Assembly (NCBI RefSeq): GCF_000446015.1
Contig: NC_022093.1
Span: 90,001-122,000, forward strand
Origin: Thermofilum adornatum
GTDB lineage: Archaea; Thermoproteota; Thermoprotei; Thermofilales; Thermofilaceae
Reading direction: 5' to 3'
DNA length: 32,000 bases
This document shows positions 4,187 through 31,811 of this stretch, in pieces (within the stretch, counting starts at the first letter, position 1; each line of letters opens with the position of its first letter). Below the pieces are notes generated by a model, which was not told the DNA's origin, made no database searches, and saw nothing but the letters and a program-made list of their open reading frames with translations. A program made the translations under genes and the position numbers.

Positions 4187-6088
4187 TTATAGGCCTAGAA
4201 TCTTTCTTATCCAGTTTACTAGATTTTCGAACGCCAGGCTTATCTTCAGCAAGATGTCTTGTATCCAGTCACCAATGTTTTTGCTGGGTTGCGGGTTGCT
4301 TGGAGCGCTAGGTGTCTGGCTGGGCTGGCTTGGTGTAGTTGATTCTCCTTGCTTTGGCTGTTGGACTGTTTCCTTGAGATTAATGGTTTTAAGCAGGTCT
4401 TGGACGAGTTCTCCAAGCTGTGAGCTCAGCTTCAAATATGCCAGGCGATCCTGTAGCTCGGCGCCGCTAGACTGGTTTAGATAGTATATTGAGGCAATCA
4501 TGTCTGGATATGTTGACGCGACTGCCATGGCGTTTTTCCTCGAGACTTCTGTATAGGGATCTTTTCCTGATGCCTGTGCCTGGAAGTAGAGCATGGCCGC
4601 CTCTGCCAGTGCAATGCTTCTAGCAGCCGCTATTGCGGCGAACAGTGGCTTCTTGGAAGAGTAGAGGCTGGTTGCCAGCGTATAGTATATCTGTGAAGAG
4701 TCGATTAATGTTAGGTCTCCACCAGCCTCGCTGAGTACTGAGTATATGTATGGCCACGTACTCCTAGCTACTGAGATATATGTTGCAGCTACCTGTGAAG
4801 AGTCTGGTAAAACCCCTGCCTGTAGACCGTTGCTCCAGGCTTTTGCTTCATCTATGAGGGCCGACGAAAAAGCTATGTTTTGAAGGGCTGTTGATGGGTC
4901 TGTATTCCACATGTTTGCTGACTCGTTGTATAGTTTGAGTGCCTGGACTGTCTTGTCTATTGAGAGCGTAAGGATGTTGAGTTCTAGGACGTTTCTGGGT
5001 GCCTTGTTGCTTAGTTCATCAATTGTTGCAGTTATCTGGTCCGAGATGGCCTGCACTTGTTGGTCTAGCTGTACATTTGAATAGTAGTCTACTAAGAGCT
5101 TTATCCATCTAGAGATGGCTATGCTTGATGTGAGTAGCGAAATGGATGATACATCTCTGGTGGATGCCCGAGACAAGTAGCTTTTTGCATATCTATCCAA
5201 GTAAGAGTTCAGGGTGGACTTGCCGACGCTTGTCAGCCTCGATGCGTTGACTTTTGTGTATGCCTCGTTAAGCTCCCTTTGTGCAATCTGTGTGAGCTGG
5301 CTTCTAACCTTATCTATAATCTTTATAGCATCGCTACTCAGATATGGTGCTGTGGTATAGCTTGCAGGAATTTTGACGCCGAAAAAGTAGTACAGAGCAT
5401 CAGTCAGAGTGGTGACCTCGACAACCCTGAGACCCCAATTCTTGTGGGCGTAGTCCGTAAGATTGATGACTACCGGCTGGGTTGTGTAGTAGCGGAAGGG
5501 TCCAATTCTCTTTACAACTGTCTGGTACTGTGTGACAATGCTCTGTCCAGGGGGGACAAGAAATATTTTTGCACCAGCCTGGGCCACTGCCTGGGCCTTC
5601 TCGTATACACCTCCGACTGGACCCACTGTGCCGTCTGGGGAGATCATTCCTGTAACTGTTACAGAGCGGTTTATGGGCTTGCCTGTTAGGGCCGAGTAGA
5701 CCGCGATCGACATGGCCACTCCTGCACTTGGACCCCCAATGATTACCGCGTCTCCCTGGACTTTGAAGTAGTAGTTGTAGTTGGAAAAGTTGAGACCAAG
5801 AAGCCTCGTAACTACCCTGGCAGCCGCTGTAGCGGCGCCCTGGAAGTCTTCCTGTGTGAGTGAATAAGTCGACACGTACACGTCTCCCCATCCCTCGGTC
5901 ACAAATACGGAGATGTTTGTAGCGGAGCCTATCATTCCTGTCGAGGTTTGTGCCACTGCCGGCGCTAGTATCCAGGCGGAGCCAATTATCTTGAGTTGGC
6001 CCTGGGACGGCGCTGACAAAGAGGTAGGGACAAGGCTCAGCAGGAAAATCACTAAAATTATTGGTGCAAACAGCTTTCTATAGCTCAT
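4187..6088 (-). CDS. Secreted S16 (Lon C-terminal proteolytic domain) serine protease with a long helical C-terminal region
   Basis: Signal peptide MSYRKLFAPIILVIFLLSLVPTSLSA. The Lon-type catalytic block is IIGGPSAGVAMSIAVYSALTG...VTGMISPDGTVGPVGGVYEKAQAVAQAGAKIFLVP. Ser121 (GPSAG) and Lys164 are 43 residues apart, as in Lon. About 400 aa of helical sequence follow, then a Pro/Ser/Gln linker (TTPSQPSQTPSAPSNPQPS) and an amphipathic C-terminal helix. Confidence 0.8.
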   Translation of the reverse strand: MSYRKLFAPIILVIFLLSLVPTSLSAPSQGQLKIIGSAWILAPAVAQTSTGMIGSATNISVFVTEGWGDVYVSTYSLTQEDFQGAATAAARVVTRLLGLNFSNYNYYFKVQGDAVIIGGPSAGVAMSIAVYSALTGKPINRSVTVTGMISPDGTVGPVGGVYEKAQAVAQAGAKIFLVPPGQSIVTQYQTVVKRIGPFRYYTTQPVVINLTDYAHKNWGLRVVEVTTLTDALYYFFGVKIPASYTTAPYLSSDAIKIIDKVRSQLTQIAQRELNEAYTKVNASRLTSVGKSTLNSYLDRYAKSYLSRASTRDVSSISLLTSSIAISRWIKLLVDYYSNVQLDQQVQAISDQITATIDELSNKAPRNVLELNILTLSIDKTVQALKLYNESANMWNTDPSTALQNIAFSSALIDEAKAWSNGLQAGVLPDSSQVAATYISVARSTWPYIYSVLSEAGGDLTLIDSSQIYYTLATSLYSSKKPLFAAIAAARSIALAEAAMLYFQAQASGKDPYTEVSRKNAMAVASTYPDMIASIYYLNQSSGAELQDRLAYLKLSSQLGELVQDLLKTINLKETVQQPKQGESTTPSQPSQTPSAPSNPQPSKNIGDWIQDILLKISLAFENLVNWIRKILGL

Positions 6089-13737: not shown

Positions 13738-14256
13738 ATGCGTTCACAGGATGTAGCTCTCTCGGCCTTAATTGCGGCTCTATATGCCGTTCTCGTAGTT
13801 GTTCTCCAGCCAATTTCTTTCCTGGCTTTCCAGGTTAGACTCGCTGATGCATTGCTCCCTCTTTCCATGGTTTATGGGTTCCCGGTGGCTGTCGGCGTCA
13901 GTCTGGGATGCTTCGTTGGAAACTTTTTGGCCGCTCCGTGGGGGAGCTTGTCTTTATCAATGATTGATGCGGTGTTTGGATCTATTGCTAACTTTGTGGC
14001 GAGTATGTTGGCTTATTTGATTGCTAAGAGGGGAGCGGGGATTAAGCTTAAGATTTGGGGCGCGGCGTCAGAGGCAGTTGTAGTCTCTATTATCGTGGGT
14101 ACTTATCTCAAGTTTTTGCTCGAGTGGGCTATGGGTATTGATCTCCCACTGATATTGTCAGTGCTAGGAGTTTTAGGCGGCTCCATTGTTTCGATTGTTA
14201 TTATTGGTGTCCCAGTAGCTGTAATTGTTGAAAAGAATTTTCCACGTCTTAAATAA
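13738..14256 (+). CDS. queT: QueT-family queuosine/archaeosine-precursor transporter
   Basis: This is a 172-aa polytopic membrane protein. The block ALIAALYAVLVVVLQPISFLAFQVRLADALLPL...GCFVGNF...IDAVFGSIANFVASMLAYLIAKR follows the QueT pattern as I remember it. Confidence 0.65.
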   Translation: MRSQDVALSALIAALYAVLVVVLQPISFLAFQVRLADALLPLSMVYGFPVAVGVSLGCFVGNFLAAPWGSLSLSMIDAVFGSIANFVASMLAYLIAKRGAGIKLKIWGAASEAVVVSIIVGTYLKFLLEWAMGIDLPLILSVLGVLGGSIVSIVIIGVPVAVIVEKNFPRLK

Positions 14257-14307: not shown

Positions 14308-14970
14308 ATGACTCAACAAACAATTGACCCGGGAAATGTACTGTCTAGAGCAATAGATTTTTCCGTGAAGCTGACAAAAGACGTTGGCAACCTGTTGATC
14401 TTGATTGTCCTGTCAATTATACCAATTGTTAACTTTATTGTTATAGGCTACTTTGCAGAAATAGTTTGGCAAAATCCCGAGGAGCCGCCGAAGCTAGAAA
14501 CATCGAGACTGGGTGAATATTTCGTAGAGGGTCTCAAGGTTATCCTAATATCGCTGGTCTACTTCATCGTCCCCCTTCTCTTAATAGGTATCGGCATGGT
14601 TACCAGCGGGGCCTTCCATCCAATGGGAATGACTGGCATAGGTTTCCTCAGGCTACTGGCTGGAGGAATATTTTTCTTGCTGGGCTTTATACTCTTGCTT
14701 GCCATTGCTTTCATTGCTTACCCACTTCTGGGAATAATTCTAAGAACTGGTGATGCCTCAAAGATATTTGCCTTCGGCGAAGCATGGAGCCTTATTCAGA
14801 CAATTGGTCTGGGTAACTACCTAGTCATTTTAATAGCGCTCCTCATTATCAATCTAATTGTTTCTGCACTTGGCAACATAGTAGCATTAATCCTGTCACC
14901 GTTTCTCATGGCTATAACCTTCAAAGCATTAGCCATAATAGTTGATACAAGATATCCTGCACGCCCCTAA
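14308..14970 (+). CDS. DUF4013-like integral membrane protein
   Basis: The N-terminal region (IIPIVNFIVIGYFAEIVWQNPEEPPKLE...YFVEGLKVILISLVYFIVPLLL) resembles the archaeal DUF4013 pattern. The protein is 220 aa with multiple TM helices. Confidence 0.55.
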   Translation: MTQQTIDPGNVLSRAIDFSVKLTKDVGNLLILIVLSIIPIVNFIVIGYFAEIVWQNPEEPPKLETSRLGEYFVEGLKVILISLVYFIVPLLLIGIGMVTSGAFHPMGMTGIGFLRLLAGGIFFLLGFILLLAIAFIAYPLLGIILRTGDASKIFAFGEAWSLIQTIGLGNYLVILIALLIINLIVSALGNIVALILSPFLMAITFKALAIIVDTRYPARP

Positions 14971-15197
14971 ATTATTTCTTTTTTCTCCTCTGGCTTGAAA
15001 AGCTCTTTGGGGAGAAAAGCTCTATAGAGCTCTTCCAAGAATTCCCTCTGGATCCTTACACGTTTCTTGACTTTTTCAATAAACCTTTTTGTATCCACAA
15101 TTAATAATATTCCTGCCTTGGATATAAATCTGATGTATCTATCGTTCATGCATAGGCCCGCTTTCCGGAACCCAGTAAGTTTTATTACGTGTCCCAT
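14967..15197 (-). CDS. Small basic hypothetical protein (76 aa; possibly 60 aa from the internal Met)
   Basis: The ORF exactly fills the 246-bp space between the DUF4013-like gene (4-bp overlap at its 3' end) and the membrane-protein gene at 15217. Its composition is Lys/Arg/Glu-rich. I recognise no motif. Confidence 0.4.
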   Translation of the reverse strand: MGHVIKLTGFRKAGLCMNDRYIRFISKAGILLIVDTKRFIEKVKKRVRIQREFLEELYRAFLPKELFKPEEKKEII

Positions 15198-15216: not shown

Positions 15217-15939
15217 ATGGCTAGCACAAACCAGACTATCGTAAAGCCTGTGCCTCTAGGGTGGCTTGGTAGCTACCTCAGAATAATTGCCTTACTCCTC
15301 ACCGGCGTAGCAACAAGTTTCTCGGAGACCTTAACATGGCTACCCCTAGGCTATTTGGGTCTGACCAGCATTGTTTTTGGAAAAACTACAAATATGGAGA
15401 GGCTACTGGTGCTACTCTATTATTTAACTTTCCTCGTCCCAAACTTTGGCATAGAGGGGCTTCAGCAATTTCTCCCCAGCATAGTATTGTCTTTTACGTC
15501 TTTAGTATTTCTCGTCCTCTTGAACATTGAGGCACATAATACTATTTACATTCTGGGAGCCAACGAACTAGTGATTAACGGCTTGAGTGTTGAAGACTTA
15601 TCTTTTAAGAGTAGAAAAGTAGACCTTTCAAGCGAATATCTTATTAGAACAAAAAATCAACTTTCTAGCCGTTTCACTCGTACCCCTTTCCAGGAGATAG
15701 AGATTTTTACAGAGGAAAGGGTTTACAAACTACGAGGTGTCCCTAAGAAGGCGAGGATTGAGGATAGGCTGAAAAAGAGGGCGTCAGCGAAACGAGTCCC
15801 GAGAAAAGAAAGGTTGCCTATCGCGGAGAGAATGTCTGATGGGCTTGAAAATACAAAACCAGAAGAGAGGAAGGCTGGCAAAGATAACGAAGATACGTAT
15901 AAAGCAAGGAAAAATCTCATTGACGATTTTCTGCCGTGA
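15217..15939 (+). CDS. Membrane protein (about 4 TM helices), small cytoplasmic beta-rich domain and Lys/Arg-rich tail; partner of the BrxL-like ATPase
   Basis: Four hydrophobic segments lie within residues about 18-105. Next comes TIYILGANELVINGLSVEDLSFKSRKVDL...EIEIFTEERVYKLRGVP, which may be a bacterial-PH-like domain (inference). A highly basic tail follows (KKRASAKRVPRKERLP...KPEERKAGK). The TGA stop at 15937-15939 overlaps a GAGGTG Shine-Dalgarno-like element 5 nt ahead of the next ATG. Confidence 0.7.
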   Translation: MASTNQTIVKPVPLGWLGSYLRIIALLLTGVATSFSETLTWLPLGYLGLTSIVFGKTTNMERLLVLLYYLTFLVPNFGIEGLQQFLPSIVLSFTSLVFLVLLNIEAHNTIYILGANELVINGLSVEDLSFKSRKVDLSSEYLIRTKNQLSSRFTRTPFQEIEIFTEERVYKLRGVPKKARIEDRLKKRASAKRVPRKERLPIAERMSDGLENTKPEERKAGKDNEDTYKARKNLIDDFLP

Positions 15940-15948
15940 GGTGTAAAT

Positions 15949-17361
15949 ATGAGGGAAAATCTAGATTCAAAGATAAGGAGGGTTTTTGGACCTGTAGCAA
16001 TAAACAAGAAGATATCAAACAATGCCTCGATTGCCAGAATACCTAGATTTATCTCAGAGTACCTGATAAGCTATAAGTGCGGGGACAAACAGGACGCCTC
16101 CTGTATCTCTAGTCTCTCTAGATACATAGCCGAGCTTTATCCTGAACCTTCTCAGCGCGACCTATTCCTAAGCAAGCTTAAGGAAGACGGCCAGCTCAAG
16201 CTGTTAGACGAATTTAAAGTCAGGGTCGACTTGAAAAACAACGCATACATACTGGAGATCCCATCGCTACAGATTTTCGACGCGTATGTAAACGATGAAA
16301 TTGTCAAGAAAAACGAGAGGATATTCTCTGGCCTATGGGGGATAGGCCTCCTCTATTATTCTCCTGACGCCTTGAAGACTAAGAGAAGCATGACACCCAT
16401 CGTTTTGGAGGATTTCAGGCCGTTCCAGGCTTCCTATGTTGACTTGAATCTCTTCCGTGAGGGGAGGCGTTATTTTAGTCTTGAAGAATGGAGAGACCTG
16501 CTCGTGACAAGCATAGGGCTTAACCCAGAAGCATATTCACCACTCCAGAAAACATTGCTCCTGTTTAGGCTCGTCCCAGCAATTGAGACAAACGTAAACC
16601 TTTTGGAGCTCGGACCGAGGGCTACTGGGAAGACGTCGCTCTACAGAAACACAGTCTACTATGCGAGGATCTATGCAGGGGGCACAATTACTCCTGCCCG
16701 CTTGTTTTTCGATGCTAGGCTCTCTATCCCAGGAGACCTGGCTCTCCATGACATACTTGTCTTCGACGAGATAAGCAAGGTGAAGCTTCAAAACCCAGAC
16801 GAGCTTGCGTCCAAGCTGAAGGACTACATGGTCGACGGCTTCTTTGAAAGAGGAGCACTGAAAAGAGCACACAGCACATGTTCACTTGTCTTCGTAGGCA
16901 ACATAGACATGGAAAAAGTCCAGGACGTGGGATCCGTACTAAGCTACCTACCAGGCTTTATGCATGACTCTGCCTTCCTCGACAGGATACATGGGTTTAT
17001 CCCTGGCTGGGAGCTTCCAAAAATAATGAAGAGCGAGGTTTCCCTAGCTTCTGGCTATGGGCTGGCCTCCGACTATTTGGCAGAGGTTCTACACAGATTT
17101 AGGTCTGAGTCTGCCGAGGGAGTCGTAAACGAGCACTTTGAACTCATTGGCAACTATACGATACGTGACGAGAAAGCCGTGAAAAAATTGTTGTCAGGAA
17201 TGATTAAGCTATTCTTCCCAAATTATGAATTTGACAATAGGGAACTTGCAGAACTAGCTACGCTTGCCACAGATCTACGAAACAGGGTTGCAAGGCTCCT
17301 CACAAGGATGTCTCCCCAAGAGTTTCCTGAAAAAGAGTTAGGTATTAGGGTTAGGGGCTAA
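15949..17361 (+). CDS. BrxL-like AAA+ ATPase lacking the C-terminal Lon-like domain (TIGR02688-type)
   Basis: Walker A LELGPRATGKTSLY (residues 220-232), Walker B DILVFDEIS. The blocks LKDYMVDGFFERG, CSLVFVGNID, DSAFLDRIHGFIPGWELPKI, YGLASDYLAEVL and RDEKAVKKLLSGMIKL are collinear with the ATPase half of BREX BrxL as I remember it. The protein ends at 470 aa, and the next gene is convergent. Confidence 0.8.
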   Translation: MRENLDSKIRRVFGPVAINKKISNNASIARIPRFISEYLISYKCGDKQDASCISSLSRYIAELYPEPSQRDLFLSKLKEDGQLKLLDEFKVRVDLKNNAYILEIPSLQIFDAYVNDEIVKKNERIFSGLWGIGLLYYSPDALKTKRSMTPIVLEDFRPFQASYVDLNLFREGRRYFSLEEWRDLLVTSIGLNPEAYSPLQKTLLLFRLVPAIETNVNLLELGPRATGKTSLYRNTVYYARIYAGGTITPARLFFDARLSIPGDLALHDILVFDEISKVKLQNPDELASKLKDYMVDGFFERGALKRAHSTCSLVFVGNIDMEKVQDVGSVLSYLPGFMHDSAFLDRIHGFIPGWELPKIMKSEVSLASGYGLASDYLAEVLHRFRSESAEGVVNEHFELIGNYTIRDEKAVKKLLSGMIKLFFPNYEFDNRELAELATLATDLRNRVARLLTRMSPQEFPEKELGIRVRG

Positions 17362-17413
17362 GCTCCTTGAATGTGTTTGGTAGCGCGAGCTACTTTAATG
17401 CTTGGTTGCTAGG

Positions 17414-17428
17414 AAAAAAAAGAAAAAA
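17414..17428 (-). terminator. Oligo-T terminator of the dsrE-tusA-sqr-DUF1641 operon
   Basis: The minus strand reads TTTTTTCTTTTTTTT immediately after the TAA stop (17429-17431) of the DUF1641 gene. This is typical of archaeal intrinsic termination. A GTAGC-GCGA-GCTAC hairpin lies nearby at 17380-17393. Confidence 0.5.
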
Positions 17429-17830
17429 TTATTTTGTTTTGGTTTTTCCTATCGCTTTCAGAAGCTCCACCATTAAGCCGAGACCCTTCTGGACGTCTGG
17501 GTCCGACATTGCACGCATAAGGCCGGTAATGCCAACTGGTTTAGGTTCACGGGATAGAGCCTCTAGTGCGGCCTTTATGACGGGCATGTTTCCTTTTATG
17601 GCTTCAACGTCTATTGAGCCTGCAAGATCTAGGAGGTCGTCTATGTGGTCTAATAGTTTAAGTGTGCCCGGAGTCATTAAGAGCTCGGACAGTCTCCCAA
17701 TGAATTCTGGGTCGAGTAGGTCTCGTATGGTGTCTAGCAGGCCTAGCTCGTTCATTTTAACGAGCATGTCTAGGAATTTTTCTAGCGCCTCTCTCCTTTC
17801 CTTGGTCAATATTGTTTCCACCTTTACCAC
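17429..17830 (-). CDS. DUF1641 domain protein (SQR/FAD-oxidoreductase-associated)
   Basis: This is a 133-aa helical acidic protein (LGLLDTIRDLLDPEFIGRLSELL...LLDHIDDLLDLAGSID). It overlaps the upstream oxidoreductase gene by 7 bp. DUF1641 genes are commonly paired with this oxidoreductase class. Confidence 0.6.
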   Translation of the reverse strand: MVKVETILTKERREALEKFLDMLVKMNELGLLDTIRDLLDPEFIGRLSELLMTPGTLKLLDHIDDLLDLAGSIDVEAIKGNMPVIKAALEALSREPKPVGITGLMRAMSDPDVQKGLGLMVELLKAIGKTKTK

Positions 17831-29960: not shown

Positions 29961-31811
29961 TTATAGCCTGATTTTTTCCCAGGGTGGCTGTATGTGGTCC
30001 AGCTTTGTGTGGCTTATTTCTTGTCTTAGCTCGCGGACGTAGTCTGGCAGGAGTGGCAGGTAATTGTTGTAGCGGTGGTCGCCCAGGATTATTACTGCTT
30101 GGTCTCTTGGGCTTCTGAGGGCTCTCCCTATTGCTTGTGAGGCTTTGCGGAGGGCGGGGTATATGTATGCGTAGAGTCTTCCTTTTCCTTCTCCGTATAG
30201 CTCCTCGTAGTAGGAGATGTAGAGGTTGGTCTTTACTGTTGGTTTTTCGAAGGGTATTCCTGCGAGGAAGACGCATACAAGCTCTTTTCCGGGGAGGTCT
30301 ATGCCTTCGGCGAATCTTCCACCCATTGGTGCTACTAGTAGCCCTTTTCCTTCGTCTGCAAGCTCCTTGAACTCTTGGAGTACTTCTCCGGCTTCTTGGC
30401 CACTCATATCCCTTTTCTCGACGAAGACTTGGTAGCCCTTTTGTTGGCTTGTCTCCCTTAGACCTGCTTCTAGGAGCTTCAGCTGTATCCTGTAGCTGGC
30501 AGTGAAGACGGCCGTGTTTCCCTTTACCCTCTCGAGGACCTTTCCGATAGCTTCTACATATTTTCTGGCCATTTCCTGTGAGAGCTCTTCGCCTCTTGTT
30601 GTGAGGTCTTTTACAATGTATACGGATGCATTTGTCTCGTCGTATGGGCTGGGGACGCTTATGGGCTTGTAGTTTTTTACTCCTATTGTCTCGGCGAACG
30701 CCTCTATGGGGCTGAGGGTGCCAGACATAAATATTACCCTTCTAAACTTCTTCCAGACGTTTGAGAGTATCTCAGAGGATCTCATGTCCCATATGTTGAG
30801 GTGTATTTTGCCATCGATTTTTTCGGCTATCAGGGCTACTCCTCTTTCTCCCTCGTAGCTGGTTGCCTCTTCTAGGAAGTTTGCCAAGTGGTACAGGCTA
30901 CTGTGCGGCCTTTTACCTTCTCTAAACCTCATGTCCCTTACCTCCTCGCCTAGAATCTTCATTTTCTCTATCATTTCCTCGCGTCCATCTATGAGTTTAA
31001 GCGGGCTGAATACTTGGGACTCTTCTTCGCCTAGGCTCGAGAACTCTTTTTCCACGTTTTCCTGTATCTTGTCTATGAATTCGGCCATGTCTCTGGCTTC
31101 TAGTTCTTCTGCCTCTCTTTTCGCCCTCTCAATTGTGCCCTCTGTCACTGTGTCTCCGCCGAGGTTTAGCTGTGTCAGGTTGTGCGCCTCGTCCACTACG
31201 AGTATGGACTGGCTAAGCGGGAAGGCTCCCTTTATCGTCCAGGAGAGGTTCTCGTCTACCACGTAGTTATAGCTGAGCGATACTACGTCTGCCACTTTAA
31301 GCAACTCTCTCTGTAGAAAGTATGGGCATACCTTTTTCTTTCGGGCCCATTCATAGACTTCACTGTAGGTTAGCACGCCCCTGCTCAGCAGGATGCTGTA
31401 GTCTACGCCTTCCTCTAGCCTATTGTAGTATGGGCACCTCTTCCTCTCGCGGCTACATATGTAGGAGACCTCGCTGTAGTCAAGTGTCTCGCCGAACTCC
31501 TTCGCTAGGAGGCACATGTCCTTTTTCCCGCGGAAGCTCATAGCTATGAATCTTGCATTTGACTTTTCGCGGAAGACCCTGAACTCCTCGATTGGCCTGT
31601 CCGTCTCATTTCCCGTTCTAACGGCCCACACTATTCTTCCTCCCCTGTCTAGGAAGGGCAAAAGCGAATAGATTACTACAGGTGTTTTGCCGAAGCCTGT
31701 TGGGGCCTCGAGGATAACGTTGGCTGTCTTGAGTGTTTCCTGTATCTCTGAGGCTACCTCTAGTTGGCGGGGCCTCGGCTTGTAGGGAAACTTGTATTTC
31801 GAGAGGCTCAA
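29961..31811 (-). CDS. xpd: XPD/Rad3-family 5'-3' DNA helicase (FeS-cluster SF2 helicase)
   Basis: Walker A LEAPTGFGKT and DEAH box LVVDEAHNL are present. Four cysteines lie in the expected FeS-domain region (DMCLL, YICSRERKRCPYY, KKVCPYF). C-terminal helicase motifs are FMSGTLSP and GGRFAEGID. Confidence 0.9.
   Translation of the reverse strand: MSLSKYKFPYKPRPRQLEVASEIQETLKTANVILEAPTGFGKTPVVIYSLLPFLDRGGRIVWAVRTGNETDRPIEEFRVFREKSNARFIAMSFRGKKDMCLLAKEFGETLDYSEVSYICSRERKRCPYYNRLEEGVDYSILLSRGVLTYSEVYEWARKKKVCPYFLQRELLKVADVVSLSYNYVVDENLSWTIKGAFPLSQSILVVDEAHNLTQLNLGGDTVTEGTIERAKREAEELEARDMAEFIDKIQENVEKEFSSLGEEESQVFSPLKLIDGREEMIEKMKILGEEVRDMRFREGKRPHSSLYHLANFLEEATSYEGERGVALIAEKIDGKIHLNIWDMRSSEILSNVWKKFRRVIFMSGTLSPIEAFAETIGVKNYKPISVPSPYDETNASVYIVKDLTTRGEELSQEMARKYVEAIGKVLERVKGNTAVFTASYRIQLKLLEAGLRETSQQKGYQVFVEKRDMSGQEAGEVLQEFKELADEGKGLLVAPMGGRFAEGIDLPGKELVCVFLAGIPFEKPTVKTNLYISYYEELYGEGKGRLYAYIYPALRKASQAIGRALRSPRDQAVIILGDHRYNNYLPLLPDYVRELRQEISHTKLDHIQPPWEKIRL

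What the first reader, a model, noticed from the sequence alone, without database searches (positions are those of the whole stretch)
15217..17361. Orphan BrxL-like AAA+ ATPase without the Lon-like domain, translationally coupled to a 4-TM membrane protein: candidate two-gene system outside any BREX context
The 470-aa protein is collinear with the N-terminal and ATPase parts of BREX BrxL as I recall them. Matching blocks include ELGPRATGKTSLY (Walker A), ILVFDEIS (Walker B), LKDYMVDGFFERG, LVFVGNID, DSAFLDRIHGFIPGWELPKI and YGLASDYLAEVL. It stops where BrxL would continue into its Lon-like domain, and the next gene is convergent, so no split Lon gene follows. This matches the roughly 470-aa TIGR02688-type family, which has been described as lying downstream of a large PglZ-type protein. 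Here I see no pglZ, pglX methyltransferase or brxA/B/C within about 15 kb on either side. Instead, the gene sits 10 bp after a 240-aa protein with four TM helices, a small beta-rich cytoplasmic domain (possibly bacterial-PH-like) and a strongly basic tail. A GAGGTG ribosome-binding element overlaps the upstream stop codon. BrxL is reported to be a ring-forming, DNA-binding AAA+ protein. A membrane-tethered, Lon-less version could act on incoming DNA at the membrane as a defence or exclusion function. It could also be an uncharacterised housekeeping machine. I do not know of this pairing being described.
Basis: partly seen in the sequence, partly recalled or inferred. Interest (0 to 1): 0.8.

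Follow-up and report, generated by a model that had tools for sequence, protein, structure and literature searches.

The report
Membrane-anchored Lon-less BrxL gene pair
An archaeal family (Thermofilaceae) stably keeps a two-gene operon pairing a DNA-ring ATPase known from the BREX anti-virus system with its own membrane protein and none of the other BREX genes, which offers a minimal natural setting for finding out what this ATPase does and how it is recruited.

Summary
15949-17361 encodes a 470-aa Lon-less BrxL (BrxL_N + BrxL_ATPase; TIGR02688 at 433 bits, cutoff 329). It starts 9 nt after a 240-aa protein with four hydrophobic helices, a PH-like domain, a disordered basic linker and a conserved C-terminal peptide. 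No PglZ, PglX or BrxA/B/C lies in the 32-kb window.

The pair is real and conserved: all 13 loci with the membrane protein also have BrxL, across two genera, at a syntenic core-genome site, and both genes are under purifying selection. But the membrane partner exists only in Thermofilaceae.

Elsewhere, short BrxL is a promiscuous module. It follows DUF499-type ATPases, type IIG enzymes and other partners. The sister clade (bootstrap 100/100) sits in a methylase + ATPase + BrxL + possibly PglZ-like operon.

Unrelated partners encoded just upstream of BrxL share a C-terminal R-S-W-D-x-L-L-type peptide. The membrane protein's tail resembles it only modestly.

Best reading (inferred): the membrane protein tethers the BrxL ring to the membrane, as a stripped-down derivative of a BREX-related defence operon. 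Whether it acts in defence or housekeeping is open.

Verdict: new variant of a known kind; interest 0.6.

The parts
15180..15187 (+). TATA-like box (TTTTATTA) 30-37 nt upstream of the membrane gene's ATG; a candidate archaeal promoter giving a leaderless or near-leaderless transcript.
   Evidence: Read directly from the sequence. Comparable A/T boxes (AATATAT, AATATTAT, AATGTTATT) sit at the same distance in L001, L003 and L013. Promoter function is inferred.
15217..15939 (+). Gene for the 240-aa Thermofilaceae-specific membrane adaptor (family 'F8').
   Evidence: ORF. No Pfam, NCBIfam or PADLOC hit. Homologues occur only in Thermofilaceae. dN/dS is 0.24-0.34 against near-identical strains.
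15253..15540 (+). Four predicted membrane helices (aa 13-33, 37-54, 59-73, 86-108).
   Evidence: AlphaFold2 model, pLDDT 82-95 over most of this region and 68 over residues 71-80. Mean hydropathy is 1.1-1.45, with the best 19-residue window at 2.11. An N-in/C-in topology is inferred from the even helix number and from placing the K/R-rich C-terminal half (30 K/R in residues 109-240) in the cytoplasm.
15541..15792 (+). PH-like beta-sandwich domain capped by a C-terminal helix (aa 109-192), predicted to be cytoplasmic.
   Evidence: Domain-only AlphaFold2 model, pLDDT 78.8. The top Foldseek PDB hits are bacterial PH domains 3dcx and 3hsa (probability 0.93-0.96, TM 0.59-0.63, E 0.25-0.6). There is no sequence-profile hit.
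15793..15906 (+). Disordered, K/R/E-rich linker (aa 193-230) that varies in length and sequence between species.
   Evidence: pLDDT below 50. The alignment columns are rich in indels.
15907..15936 (+). Conserved C-terminal peptide R-K-N-L-I-D-D-F-L-P (family consensus R-x-N-[LR]-I-[DE]-x-[LF]-L-(P)); a candidate docking handle for BrxL.
   Evidence: Three of only 8 invariant columns of the family (N233, I235, L239) lie here, after a hypervariable linker. The peptide is encoded with varied synonymous codons across loci. Its resemblance to the tails of other BrxL-upstream proteins is modest. Binding to BrxL is inferred.
15938..15943 (+). GAGGTG Shine-Dalgarno-like element overlapping the TGA stop, 5 nt before the BrxL ATG.
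   Evidence: Read from the sequence. A GGTG element follows the stop in L001, L003, L013 and L015.
15949..17361 (+). Gene for the 470-aa short (Lon-less) BrxL AAA+ ATPase.
   Evidence: dN/dS is 0.08-0.10. There are more than 1000 homologues, mostly archaeal.
15982..16359 (+). BrxL N-terminal domain (aa 12-137), described in the literature as HTH-like plus an OB fold that contacts DNA.
   Evidence: Pfam PF20442, 6.2e-27. Domain description from PMC12839542. Aligns to the 8emc N-terminal domain.
16402..17337 (+). BrxL MCM-like AAA+ ATPase domain (aa 152-463).
   Evidence: Pfam PF13337, 2.9e-106, model positions 2-311 of 313.
16612..16635 (+). Walker A motif GPRATGKT (K228).
   Evidence: Invariant across 18 homologues.
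16753..16776 (+). Walker B motif ILVFDEIS (D273, E274). E274 aligns with the Walker B glutamate of Acinetobacter BrxL (the paper's E280Q DNA-bound mutant; the residue equivalence is my inference).
   Evidence: Invariant.
17362..17448 (.). A/T-tract region between and over the ends of the convergent genes (a 15-nt A-rich tract, 14 of 15 A, then TTATTTTGTTTTGGTTTTT); a candidate bidirectional terminator.
   Evidence: Read from the sequence. Function is inferred.

Best explanation
Shown:
- 15217-17361 has the layout of a two-gene operon that has been inherited vertically in Thermofilaceae.
- The second gene encodes a short BrxL. This is the BREX-type, MCM-like AAA+ protein that forms rings around dsDNA. 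It keeps its N-terminal DNA-binding region and intact Walker A and B motifs, lacks the Lon-like C-terminal domain, and is under strong purifying selection.
- The first gene encodes a lineage-specific protein with four hydrophobic helices, a PH-like domain, a long disordered basic linker and a strictly conserved C-terminal peptide.
- This BrxL lineage groups 100/100 with BrxLs that sit in methylase + DUF499-like ATPase + BrxL (+ possibly PglZ-like) operons. Thermofilaceae have none of those other genes at this locus.

Inferred:
- The pair descends from such a BREX-related operon and kept only BrxL.
- The membrane protein acts as an adaptor. Its flexible linker and C-terminal peptide hold the BrxL ring at the cytoplasmic face of the membrane. 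The PH-like domains may themselves form a ring.
- Without the Lon-like domain, which in long BrxL mediates ring-to-ring dimerisation, the protein probably works as a single ring.
- Working guess on function: the tethered ring loads onto DNA at the membrane and blocks the replication or establishment of incoming viral or plasmid DNA. Location would then replace methylation as the way to distinguish foreign DNA from self.
For: Identity of BrxL. The catalytic motifs are present and invariant.

Operon layout: a TATA-like box sits 30-37 nt before the first ATG; the junction is 9 nt with GAGGTG over the stop codon; the downstream gene is convergent with an A/T-tract region between them.

Obligate pairing: all 13 loci encoding the membrane protein have BrxL 0-36 nt downstream. 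The flanking genes change between lineages (QueT and DUF4013 upstream, DUF1641/SQR downstream in some; ModE-like or creatininase neighbours in others), so the pair itself is the conserved unit.

Selection: dN/dS is 0.08-0.10 for BrxL, similar to QueT and SQR. It is 0.24-0.34 for the partner. BrxL is 71% identical to the T. pendens protein, while the partner is only 36% identical yet keeps its tail.

Phylogeny: the membrane-paired clade has 100/100 bootstrap support. That clade plus the operon clade together also have 100/100. The operon clade alone has only 24/100, so nesting is possible. Branching follows the genera.

Independence from full systems: Infirmifilum KC_020 carries both the membrane-paired copy (L013) and a complete operon with its own BrxL (L016).

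Adaptor architecture. Published bacterial PH-domain families are typically membrane-anchored with an intracellular, ring-forming PH domain (PMC2817789).

Tail: 3 of the 8 invariant family columns are in the last 8 residues, after an indel-rich linker. The constraint is at the protein level, because synonymous codons vary. Non-homologous proteins encoded directly upstream of short BrxL share an R-S-W-D-x-phi-phi or K-R-T-L-E-x-L-phi C-terminus. These include two DUF499-like ATPase families, a SWIM-like family, F50 and a 188-aa protein. That tail is their only cross-family similarity. A post-hoc regular expression finds it in 21 of 57 upstream-adjacent ORFs against 5 of 998 others. A Thermus megaplasmid partner ends PLLDEVLGLL.

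Literature: the BrxL C-terminal domain mediates ring dimerisation, and the loading or recruitment factor is unknown (PMC10164562; PMC11974810 and PMC13326643).
Against: - No direct evidence of binding.
- The membrane protein's tail matches the tails of other partners only modestly. With a PSSM trained on the operon ATPases alone it ranks in the top 0.2% (window) to about 10% of ORF C-termini. With a broader model it ranks in the top 1-13%.
- The transmembrane helices are only moderately hydrophobic, and no dedicated topology predictor was available.
- The PH-fold E-values are not significant.
- Features atypical of defence systems: a fixed syntenic core-genome site in two genera, vertical inheritance, housekeeping-like dN/dS, no match on viral contigs, and no defence genes nearby.
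- BrxL is dispensable for restriction in some BREX systems and its activity is unresolved.
- There is no known way for BrxL alone to distinguish self from foreign DNA.
- The direction of evolution (loss from an operon versus recruitment into one) is not resolved by an unrooted-quality neighbour-joining tree.
Confidence: 0.45

Rival explanations
1. Same physical pair, but domesticated for housekeeping. The membrane-tethered DNA ring would serve a cellular DNA transaction, such as DNA uptake or exchange, chromosome-membrane attachment or segregation, or repair. It would not act in immunity.
For: The pair was found in every Thermofilaceae genome recovered by my BrxL and membrane-protein searches, at a syntenic core position among transporter and sulfur-metabolism genes. 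Inheritance is vertical and tracks the genera. BrxL's dN/dS of 0.08-0.10 equals that of its housekeeping neighbours. There is no modification enzyme or nuclease at the locus. No relatives were found on viral contigs.
Against: Every characterised or contextual relative of BrxL sits in restriction-like or defence-like operons. The nearest clade is in a methylase + ATPase operon. The partner evolves fast (36% identity against 71% for BrxL), as adaptors in conflict systems often do. No housekeeping role for any BrxL is known.
Confidence: 0.25
2. The BrxL works in trans with a restriction-modification, BREX-related or other system encoded elsewhere in the genome. The membrane protein would then be a regulator or localiser, not the only partner.
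For: In BREX, BrxL associates loosely with a BrxB/C/X/Z complex and is dispensable for methylation. Short BrxLs pair with many different modules. Only 32 kb of this genome could be inspected.
Against: In all other architectures sampled, BrxL is encoded inside its operon, and each context class has its own BrxL clade, which implies tight co-evolution with a cis partner. Infirmifilum KC_020 has a complete operon with its own BrxL in addition to the membrane-paired copy (L013 against L016).
Confidence: 0.12
3. The two proteins are co-expressed but do not bind each other. The conserved tail would recruit something else, for example the sliding clamp PCNA. Its phi-x-x-phi-phi spacing at the extreme C-terminus resembles archaeal PIP boxes (from my own knowledge).
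For: The tail's spacing (I-D-D-F-L, W-D-K-L-L, F-D-K-F-L) and its C-terminal position fit a degenerate PIP-like motif. The statistical match of the membrane protein's tail to other BrxL-partner tails is weak.
Against: The canonical PIP glutamine is absent from all tails. BrxL is the only gene immediately downstream of every protein family that carries the tail. A membrane-anchored PCNA binder has no obvious rationale.
Confidence: 0.1
4. A decaying remnant of a BREX-related operon with no current function.
For: The methylase, ATPase and PglZ-like genes of the sister operon are missing.
Against: Both reading frames are intact in 13 loci across two genera. dN/dS is well below 1 for both genes. 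The catalytic motifs are invariant. The 9-nt junction and SD element are conserved.
Confidence: 0.03

Closest known systems
BrxL of type-4 BREX (short, TIGR02688-type)
   Same: Same domain set: N-terminal HTH/OB region plus an MCM-like AAA+ domain, with no C-terminal extension. It scores above the TIGR02688 equivalog cutoff over the full model. The published description of type-4 BrxL matches this (PMC12839542).
   Different: Type-4 BREX is defined by PglZ, BrxC and a PAPS-reductase/DUF4007 phosphorothioation module. None of these is in the window. Here the upstream partner is a 240-aa membrane protein instead of PglZ.
BrxL of type-1 BREX (long form; Acinetobacter structure 8EMC/8EMH)
   Same: Collinear over residues 12-460 (E = 1.5e-69), including Walker A and B. 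E274 appears equivalent to E280, judged from the aligned Walker B motif. It is expected to form an ATP-dependent ring around dsDNA (PMC10164562).
   Different: It lacks the inactive Lon-like C-terminal domain that mediates ring-ring dimerisation. It is not preceded by PglZ. In my sample PglZ/PglX neighbours occur only with the long bacterial and haloarchaeal form.
DUF499-centred BREX-related ('BR', also called Hma) systems, especially type-3 BR with a standalone PglZ
   Same: The sister BrxL clade sits between an HmaB/DUF1156-type methylase plus a DUF499-like P-loop ATPase and a ~272-aa protein whose invariant motifs are collinear with those of PglZ. This is the probable evolutionary source of the Thermofilaceae BrxL.
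   Different: Published BR systems use a helicase, not BrxL. The window locus itself has no methylase, no DUF499 ATPase and no PglZ-like gene.
Membrane-anchored bacterial PH-domain (PHb) proteins (DUF1200/DUF2244/bPH-type; structures 3dcx, 3hsa, 3b77)
   Same: N-terminal transmembrane helices are followed by an intracellular PH-like beta-sandwich with a C-terminal helix. These are the best fold matches. The published architecture and ring formation are in PMC2817789.
   Different: No sequence-profile similarity to any Pfam bPH family. There are four helices where the published families have two. It carries an added disordered linker and a conserved C-terminal peptide. It is archaeal and always coupled to BrxL.

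Membership tests
BrxL, short form (NCBIfam TIGR02688; Pfam PF20442 + PF13337) | Whole-protein score above the curated TIGR02688 cutoff, with full-length model coverage | tested here: met
   433.3 bits against a cutoff of 329.3; model 1-449 of 449 matched to residues 9-456.
BrxL, short form (NCBIfam TIGR02688; Pfam PF20442 + PF13337) | BrxL_N domain followed by the BrxL_ATPase domain | tested here: met
   PF20442 at 6.2e-27 (residues 12-137); PF13337 at 2.9e-106 (residues 152-463).
BrxL, short form (NCBIfam TIGR02688; Pfam PF20442 + PF13337) | Intact Walker A lysine and Walker B acidic pair | tested here: met
   GPRATGKT at 222-229 and ILVFDEIS at 269-276. Invariant in 18 homologues. Aligned to the 8emc motifs.
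BrxL, short form (NCBIfam TIGR02688; Pfam PF20442 + PF13337) | ATP-dependent ring assembly on dsDNA | not testable with these tools
   Known only for Acinetobacter long BrxL (PMC10164562). Inferred here from homology.
BrxL, long Lon-related form (TIGR02653) | C-terminal inactive Lon-like domain | tested here: not met
   288.9 bits against a cutoff of 628.25; only model positions 3-461 of 675 matched. The protein ends at residue 470 and the next gene is convergent. The Lon_C protein 10 kb away is an exported, catalytically intact S16 protease, not a detached C-terminal domain.
BREX system (types 1-6) | PglZ (BrxZ) encoded in the locus | tested here: not met
   No PglZ hit among the window ORFs scanned by Pfam or PADLOC.
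BREX system (types 1-6) | BrxC/PglY ATPase encoded in the locus | tested here: not met
   No DUF499, DUF6079 or BrxC hit in the window.
BREX system (types 1-6) | Modification module (PglX methylase or PAPS-reductase) in the locus | tested here: not met
   No methyltransferase or PAPS-reductase family found in the window.
BREX system (types 1-6) | A complete BREX locus elsewhere in the same genome that could use this BrxL | not testable with these tools
   Only 32 kb is available. Indirect evidence: Infirmifilum KC_020 has a separate full operon with its own BrxL (L016) besides the membrane-paired copy (L013).
DUF499-centred BREX-related (BR/Hma) systems | DUF499 ATPase + N6-methylase + helicase core | tested here: not met
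   Absent from the window. The ATPase and methylase, but not the helicase, are present in sister-clade loci.
Bacterial PH (PHb) domain membrane proteins | PH-like beta-sandwich capped by a C-terminal helix, located after N-terminal TM helices | tested here: inconclusive
   Top PDB fold hits are 3dcx and 3hsa (probability 0.93-0.96, TM 0.59-0.63), but E is 0.25-0.6. The model's secondary structure is 6 strands plus a helix.
Bacterial PH (PHb) domain membrane proteins | Sequence-profile match to a Pfam bPH/DUF family | tested here: not met
   No Pfam hit at E <= 0.1. No PDB sequence hit with the family profile at E <= 10.
PCNA-interacting PIP-box proteins | Q-x-x-[LIM]-x-x-[FYW]-[FYWL] with the conserved glutamine (consensus from my own knowledge) | tested here: not met
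   The hydrophobic spacing fits, but no tail has the glutamine; the position holds K, R, N, S or T.

The most novel reading that the evidence does not exclude
Two linked claims:
1. The short C-terminal peptide (basic-x-x-phi-[D/E]-x-phi-phi) on whichever protein is encoded just upstream of short BrxL is a general, portable recruitment handle for the BrxL ring.
2. Thermofilaceae moved this handle onto a ring-forming, membrane-anchored PH-domain adaptor.

The result would be a modification-independent machine that captures or translocates DNA at the cell membrane. It would act either as an entry barrier against viruses and plasmids or as a domesticated DNA-uptake or DNA-handling motor fixed in the core genome.
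Probability: 0.25. Interest if true: 0.8.

Novelty: new variant of a known kind. Interest (0 to 1): 0.6.

Why it matters
What BrxL does and how it is recruited are openly unresolved questions in BREX biology. The latest survey treats BrxL as specific to BREX types 1 and 4.

This locus and its relatives add three things:
- Short BrxL is a portable module. In archaea and Thermus it is combined with at least six unrelated partner sets.
- One archaeal family has reduced the system to BrxL plus a single membrane adaptor and kept it under purifying selection. That is a natural minimal system in which BrxL's intrinsic activity could be studied without five other BREX proteins.
- Partner proteins share a short C-terminal peptide. 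This gives a concrete, cheaply testable hypothesis for BrxL recruitment.

If the pair is a domesticated defence module, it would also be a clear case of immune-to-housekeeping exaptation in archaea.

Tried and rejected
- Detached Lon domain. The 633-aa Lon_C protein at 4187-6088 (minus strand) weakly hits the C-terminal part of a BrxL model (5e-7). It matches true Lon proteases far better (8e-15), has a signal/TM N-terminus and an intact GGPSAG...K dyad, lies on the other strand 10 kb away, and no Lon_C gene lies within 10 kb upstream of BrxL in Infirmifilum. Rejected.
- Membrane protein as a truncated operon ATPase. hhalign of the two families finds nothing (E 0.34). Rejected.
- Tail conservation as a by-product of the ribosome-binding site. 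The SD element lies at and after the stop codon, and the tail residues use many synonymous codons. Rejected.
- Small antisense ORF 14967-15197 as a third component. Its C-terminal ~35 aa are conserved in T. pendens, but the ORF and the DUF4013 gene it abuts are absent from Infirmifilum loci that keep the pair. Not part of the system.
- Mobile element origin. No BrxL relatives were found in the viral contig scan, there are no tRNA genes, no integrase or transposase family was hit, and synteny holds across genera. Rejected.
- Modelling the tail together with BrxL by a read-through construct. The tool refuses translations that contain a stop codon.
- Sequence-profile searches against the PDB gave nothing for the membrane family, for F4 or for the F3 ATPase.
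- A metagenome scan with the 7-sequence membrane profile failed because it had no conserved stretch. A 4-sequence alignment worked.
- The bacterial sigma-70 promoter and hairpin-terminator scan is not informative for an archaeon.

Full report
**1. What is in the sequence**

The 470-aa protein is a BrxL.
- Pfam finds BrxL_N (6.2e-27, residues 12-137) and BrxL_ATPase (2.9e-106, residues 152-463).
- NCBIfam TIGR02688 scores 433 bits against a curated cutoff of 329 and covers the whole model.
- The long Lon-related model TIGR02653 reaches only 289 of the 628 bits required and matches only its first 461 of 675 positions.
- Five PADLOC BrxL models hit.
- The solved Acinetobacter BrxL (8emc) aligns at 1.5e-69 over residues 12-460.
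- Walker A (GPRATGKT, K228) and Walker B (ILVFDEIS, D273/E274) are intact and invariant among homologues.
- The protein ends where the long form continues into its Lon-like domain, and the next real gene (DUF1641, 17429-17830) is convergent.

The rest of the 32-kb window encodes ABC transporters, a P-type ATPase, an ATP-cone protein, QueT, DUF4013, an SQR-like flavoprotein, DsrE (the TusA assignment comes from the orthologous gene in related loci), creatininase, a metallophosphoesterase and an XPD helicase. No PglZ, PglX or BrxA/B/C was found by Pfam or PADLOC among the ORFs scanned. There are no tRNA genes.

**2. The upstream protein**

It has no Pfam, NCBIfam or PADLOC match. AlphaFold2 with a 7-sequence alignment (pLDDT 75.9) predicts:
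- four helices (13-33, 37-54, 59-73, 86-108);
- a beta-rich domain 110-176 capped by helix 181-191;
- a disordered stretch 193-233;
- a short C-terminal peptide.

The helices are moderately hydrophobic, with mean Kyte-Doolittle values of 1.1-1.45 and a best 19-residue window of 2.11. The even helix number and the K/R-rich C-terminal half fit an N-in/C-in topology (inference).

Modelled alone (pLDDT 78.8), the soluble domain's three best PDB matches are bacterial PH domains: 3dcx (probability 0.96, TM 0.59) and 3hsa (probability 0.93, TM 0.63). Eukaryotic PH domains come next. The E-values (0.25-0.8) are not significant. Bacterial PH domains have been described as intracellular, ring-forming modules that usually follow N-terminal transmembrane helices (PMC2817789).

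**3. Operon anatomy**

- A TATA-like TTTTATTA lies 30-37 nt before the first ATG. Similar A/T boxes sit at the same distance in T. pendens and two Infirmifilum loci.
- The junction is CCG TGA GGTGTAAAT ATG. That is 9 nt, with GAGGTG overlapping the stop codon.
- A GGTG element follows the stop in the other membrane-paired loci (L001, L003, L013, L015).
- An A/T-tract region follows the BrxL stop.
- Promoter, coupling and terminator functions are inferred from the sequence.

**4. Is the pair conserved?**

Yes, but narrowly.
- A word-indexed search found one near-identical relative of the membrane protein.
- An exhaustive HMMER pass over 1.84 billion representative proteins found four.
- A profile search found three.
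- A metagenome scan found four loci.
- All named relatives are Thermofilum or Infirmifilum; the unnamed metagenome loci carry BrxLs 63-99% identical to the window's.

In every one of the 13 loci recovered, BrxL follows at a gap of 0-36 nt. These are the window, L085, L086, L093 and L094; L087, L095 and L096; L001 and L002 (T. pendens); L015 and L088; and L003, L013, L089 and L090 (Infirmifilum).

The neighbourhood is a syntenic housekeeping region. QueT is upstream in most loci, and DUF1641-SQR-TusA-DsrE lies downstream in several. The flanks do differ in some lineages (L088, L090), so the pair itself is the constant unit.

Against near-identical strains, dN/dS is 0.08-0.10 for BrxL, comparable to QueT and SQR. 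It is 0.24-0.34 for the partner, comparable to DUF4013 and DUF1641. At greater distance BrxL stays 71-85% identical while the partner falls to 36-44%.

**5. Where this BrxL comes from**

The short form has more than 1000 homologues, mostly archaeal. I fetched 79 loci from species-representative genomes, called ORFs, and clustered the neighbours. I then typed the clusters by Pfam and PADLOC. The contexts fall into classes:
- (A) ~160 aa, then an HmaB/DUF1156-type methylase (~1000 aa), then a ~1085-aa P-loop ATPase (only a weak N-terminal HmaC match), then BrxL, then F4 (~272 aa), then F5 (~170 aa). Found in 15 loci.
- (B) The Thermofilaceae membrane pair.
- (C) A DUF499/HmaC ATPase, then BrxL, then 300-aa and 125-aa proteins.
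- (D) A type IIG restriction-methylase directly upstream.
- (E) BrxL followed by an unannotated ~545-aa protein, next to a divergent CysRS gene.
- (F) SWIM-like 340-415-aa proteins upstream.
- (G) Classical PglX...PglZ-BrxL, seen only with the long bacterial form, and on a haloarchaeal plasmid.

A Thermus megaplasmid adds an arrangement of vWA, tubulin-like, 677-aa protein, BrxL, exonuclease and RecQ.

In a neighbour-joining tree each class forms its own BrxL clade. The membrane-paired clade has 100/100 bootstrap support. That clade plus class A also has 100/100. Class A alone has only 24/100, so the Thermofilaceae clade may be nested inside it. Within the clade, branching follows the genera.

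Infirmifilum KC_020 carries both a membrane-paired BrxL (L013) and a full class A operon with its own BrxL (L016). This argues that the paired copy is not simply a spare part for such an operon.

F4 has invariant motifs (VxDCxSxPE, NPxGxT, DxxxH, SDHGYD, HG) that are collinear with the invariant PglZ motifs in my bacterial PglZ alignment. hhalign aligns exactly the D..G[HE]...SDHG block, but weakly (E 0.0056, probability 6.5%). Pfam gives only sub-threshold hits to alkaline-phosphatase-superfamily families. F4 is therefore plausibly a minimal PglZ-like protein, but this is not established.

**6. The C-terminal peptide**

In the membrane-protein family only 8 alignment columns are invariant. 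Three of them (N233, I235, L239) lie in the last 8 residues, after a linker that varies from about 40 to more than 100 residues. The consensus is R-x-N-[LR]-I-[DE]-x-[LF]-L-(P).

The class A ATPases end in ...R-R-S-W-D-K-L-L-P-S or K-R-S-F-D-K-F-L-P. The SWIM-like family, the F50 family and L053 end in R-S-W-D-x-phi-phi. The DUF499 class and a 188-aa protein end in K-R-T-L-E-x-L-phi-x-x-F. The Thermus partner ends PLLDEVLGLL.

These partner families are otherwise unrelated. The only cross-family BLAST matches are the 8-17-residue tails themselves, and the F3 ATPase HMM hits only F19, through the shared P-loop region. The residues are encoded by varied synonymous codons, so the constraint is on the protein and not on the ribosome-binding site.

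A post-hoc regular expression finds the motif in 21 of 57 upstream-adjacent ORFs against 5 of 998 others. To avoid circularity I trained a PSSM on class A tails only. The RSWD-type tails of the other families then score in the top 0.1% or better. The membrane-protein tails range from the top 0.2% (window) and 0.5% (T. pendens) to about 2% (Infirmifilum) and 7-10% (two others). A broader, family-weighted model places them in the top 1-13%.

My conclusions are these. A shared C-terminal peptide among non-homologous BrxL-upstream partners is well supported. That the Thermofilaceae tail is a variant of it is only suggestive. That any of these tails binds BrxL is an inference from adjacency. A PIP-box-like reading (PCNA as the partner) fits the phi-x-x-phi-phi spacing but lacks the canonical glutamine.

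**7. Comparison with what is known**

- The 2023 structural study shows that BrxL forms ATP-dependent rings around dsDNA. Its Lon-like domain mediates ring-ring dimerisation, and it notes that a loading factor is unknown (PMC10164562).
- Later work still calls BrxL's role and recruitment unresolved.
- The 2026 comparative survey states that BrxL is specific to BREX types 1 and 4 and that type-4 BrxL lacks a C-terminal extension. It describes DUF499-centred 'BR' systems as using helicases, and it never mentions transmembrane partners (PMC12839542).
- No paper in the library mentions Thermofilum together with BREX, or mentions TIGR02688.

So the protein is a member of the short BrxL family, with all testable features met. 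The locus is not a BREX system, because PglZ, BrxC and a modification module were tested for and are absent. It is not a BR system either.

**8. Mechanism and verdict**

Best-supported reading, at 0.45 confidence for the whole chain: a vertically inherited two-gene operon in which a membrane-anchored PH-domain adaptor tethers a single-ring, Lon-less BrxL to the cytoplasmic face of the membrane through a flexible linker and a terminal peptide. The pair derives from a BREX-related methylase-ATPase-BrxL operon. The most economical functional guess is exclusion of incoming DNA at the membrane without methylation-based discrimination.

Identity, pairing, selection and ancestry are shown. Tethering and function are inferred.

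The main rival (0.25) keeps the same physical model but assigns a domesticated housekeeping role. It is favoured by the fixed core-genome position, vertical descent, low dN/dS and the absence of any nearby defence genes. Lesser rivals are action in trans with a system elsewhere (0.12), no direct interaction or another tail partner such as PCNA (0.10), and decay (0.03).

The finding is a new variant of a known kind. It is less unusual than 'orphan BrxL' suggested, because short BrxL turns out to be widely redeployed. It is more informative than expected, because it exposes that modularity and a candidate recruitment peptide. Interest: 0.6.

Noticed in passing
L004 3171-12717; also L006-L012, L014, L016, L019, L023, L061, L069: A conserved six-gene archaeal operon: ~160 aa, an HmaB/DUF1156-type methylase (~1000 aa), a ~1085-aa P-loop ATPase (only a remote HmaC/DUF499 match), short BrxL, F4 (~272 aa, PglZ-like motifs, hhalign E 0.0056) and F5 (~170 aa). 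It resembles the published 'type-3 BR' system, but BrxL stands in place of the helicase. The 2026 survey does not report BrxL in BR systems.
   Followed up: partly
L041 1279-6406; L042, L043 (also L031, L059): A full-length type IIG restriction-methylase (PADLOC REase_MTase_IIG, E = 0) lies directly upstream of, or overlapping, a short BrxL in several archaeal MAGs. This is a BrxL/type IIG pairing that I did not find described.
   Followed up: partly
L025 9941-13018; L024, L027, L032, L037, L038, L082: A second two-gene BrxL arrangement outside defence islands. In Desulfurococcales and Pyrodictiaceae, BrxL is followed 1-6 nt later by an unannotated soluble protein of 541-573 aa (no Pfam or PADLOC hit), in most of these loci with a divergent cysteinyl-tRNA synthetase gene upstream.
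   Followed up: no
L091 5628-20750 (Thermus oshimai plasmid pTHEOS01): A short BrxL sits in a row of vWA-domain protein, tubulin-like protein, 677-aa hypothetical, BrxL, 3'-5' exonuclease and a 1716-aa RecQ-family helicase. The 677-aa upstream protein ends ...PLLDEVLGLL.
   Followed up: partly
window 4187-6088 (-): A 633-aa protein with an N-terminal signal/TM segment, a Lon (S16) protease domain at aa ~50-185 with an intact GGPSAG...K dyad, a long helical region and a Pro/Ser/Gln-rich C-terminal stretch. It appears to be an exported Lon-like protease without an ATPase domain. A 628-aa Lon_C gene lies at the matching upstream position in T. pendens (L001 1-352). It is unrelated to the BrxL C-terminal domain.
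   Followed up: partly
window 14967-15197 (-): A small ORF antisense to the intergenic region, abutting the DUF4013 stop. Its C-terminal ~35 aa (VRIQREFLEELYRAFLPKELF) are conserved at the protein level in T. pendens (VKFRIEFLKKLYGSLLPKDVS). The true start is uncertain, since gene calls range from 43 to 76 aa. It is absent from Infirmifilum loci, so it is not part of the pair.
   Followed up: partly
window 13738-14256 (+); L003 8537-9064; L089 4061-4597; L090 4453-4983: A QueT (7-deazaguanine precursor transporter) gene is the nearest or next-nearest co-directional upstream neighbour of the pair in most Thermofilaceae loci, but not in L088. This is probably just synteny. I note it because 7-deazaguanine DNA modification is used by some defence systems.
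   Followed up: no
L065, L070, L073-L075, L077, L081 (PglZ C-termini upstream of long BrxL): Bacterial PglZ proteins directly upstream of long BrxL also end in an acidic or hydrophobic C-terminus with a terminal aromatic residue (...SDVDLW, ...SEVDLW, ...IREDLF, ...TRKLLF, ...REKYF). This might be a counterpart of the short-BrxL partner tail.
   Followed up: no
window 29961-31811 (-): An XPD/Rad3-type helicase (DEAD_2, HBB, Helicase_C_2) scores 1.7e-94 on the PADLOC 'typeIV_DinG' model. This is most likely ordinary archaeal XPD cross-matching the Csf4/DinG profile, since no CRISPR type IV genes are nearby.
   Followed up: no
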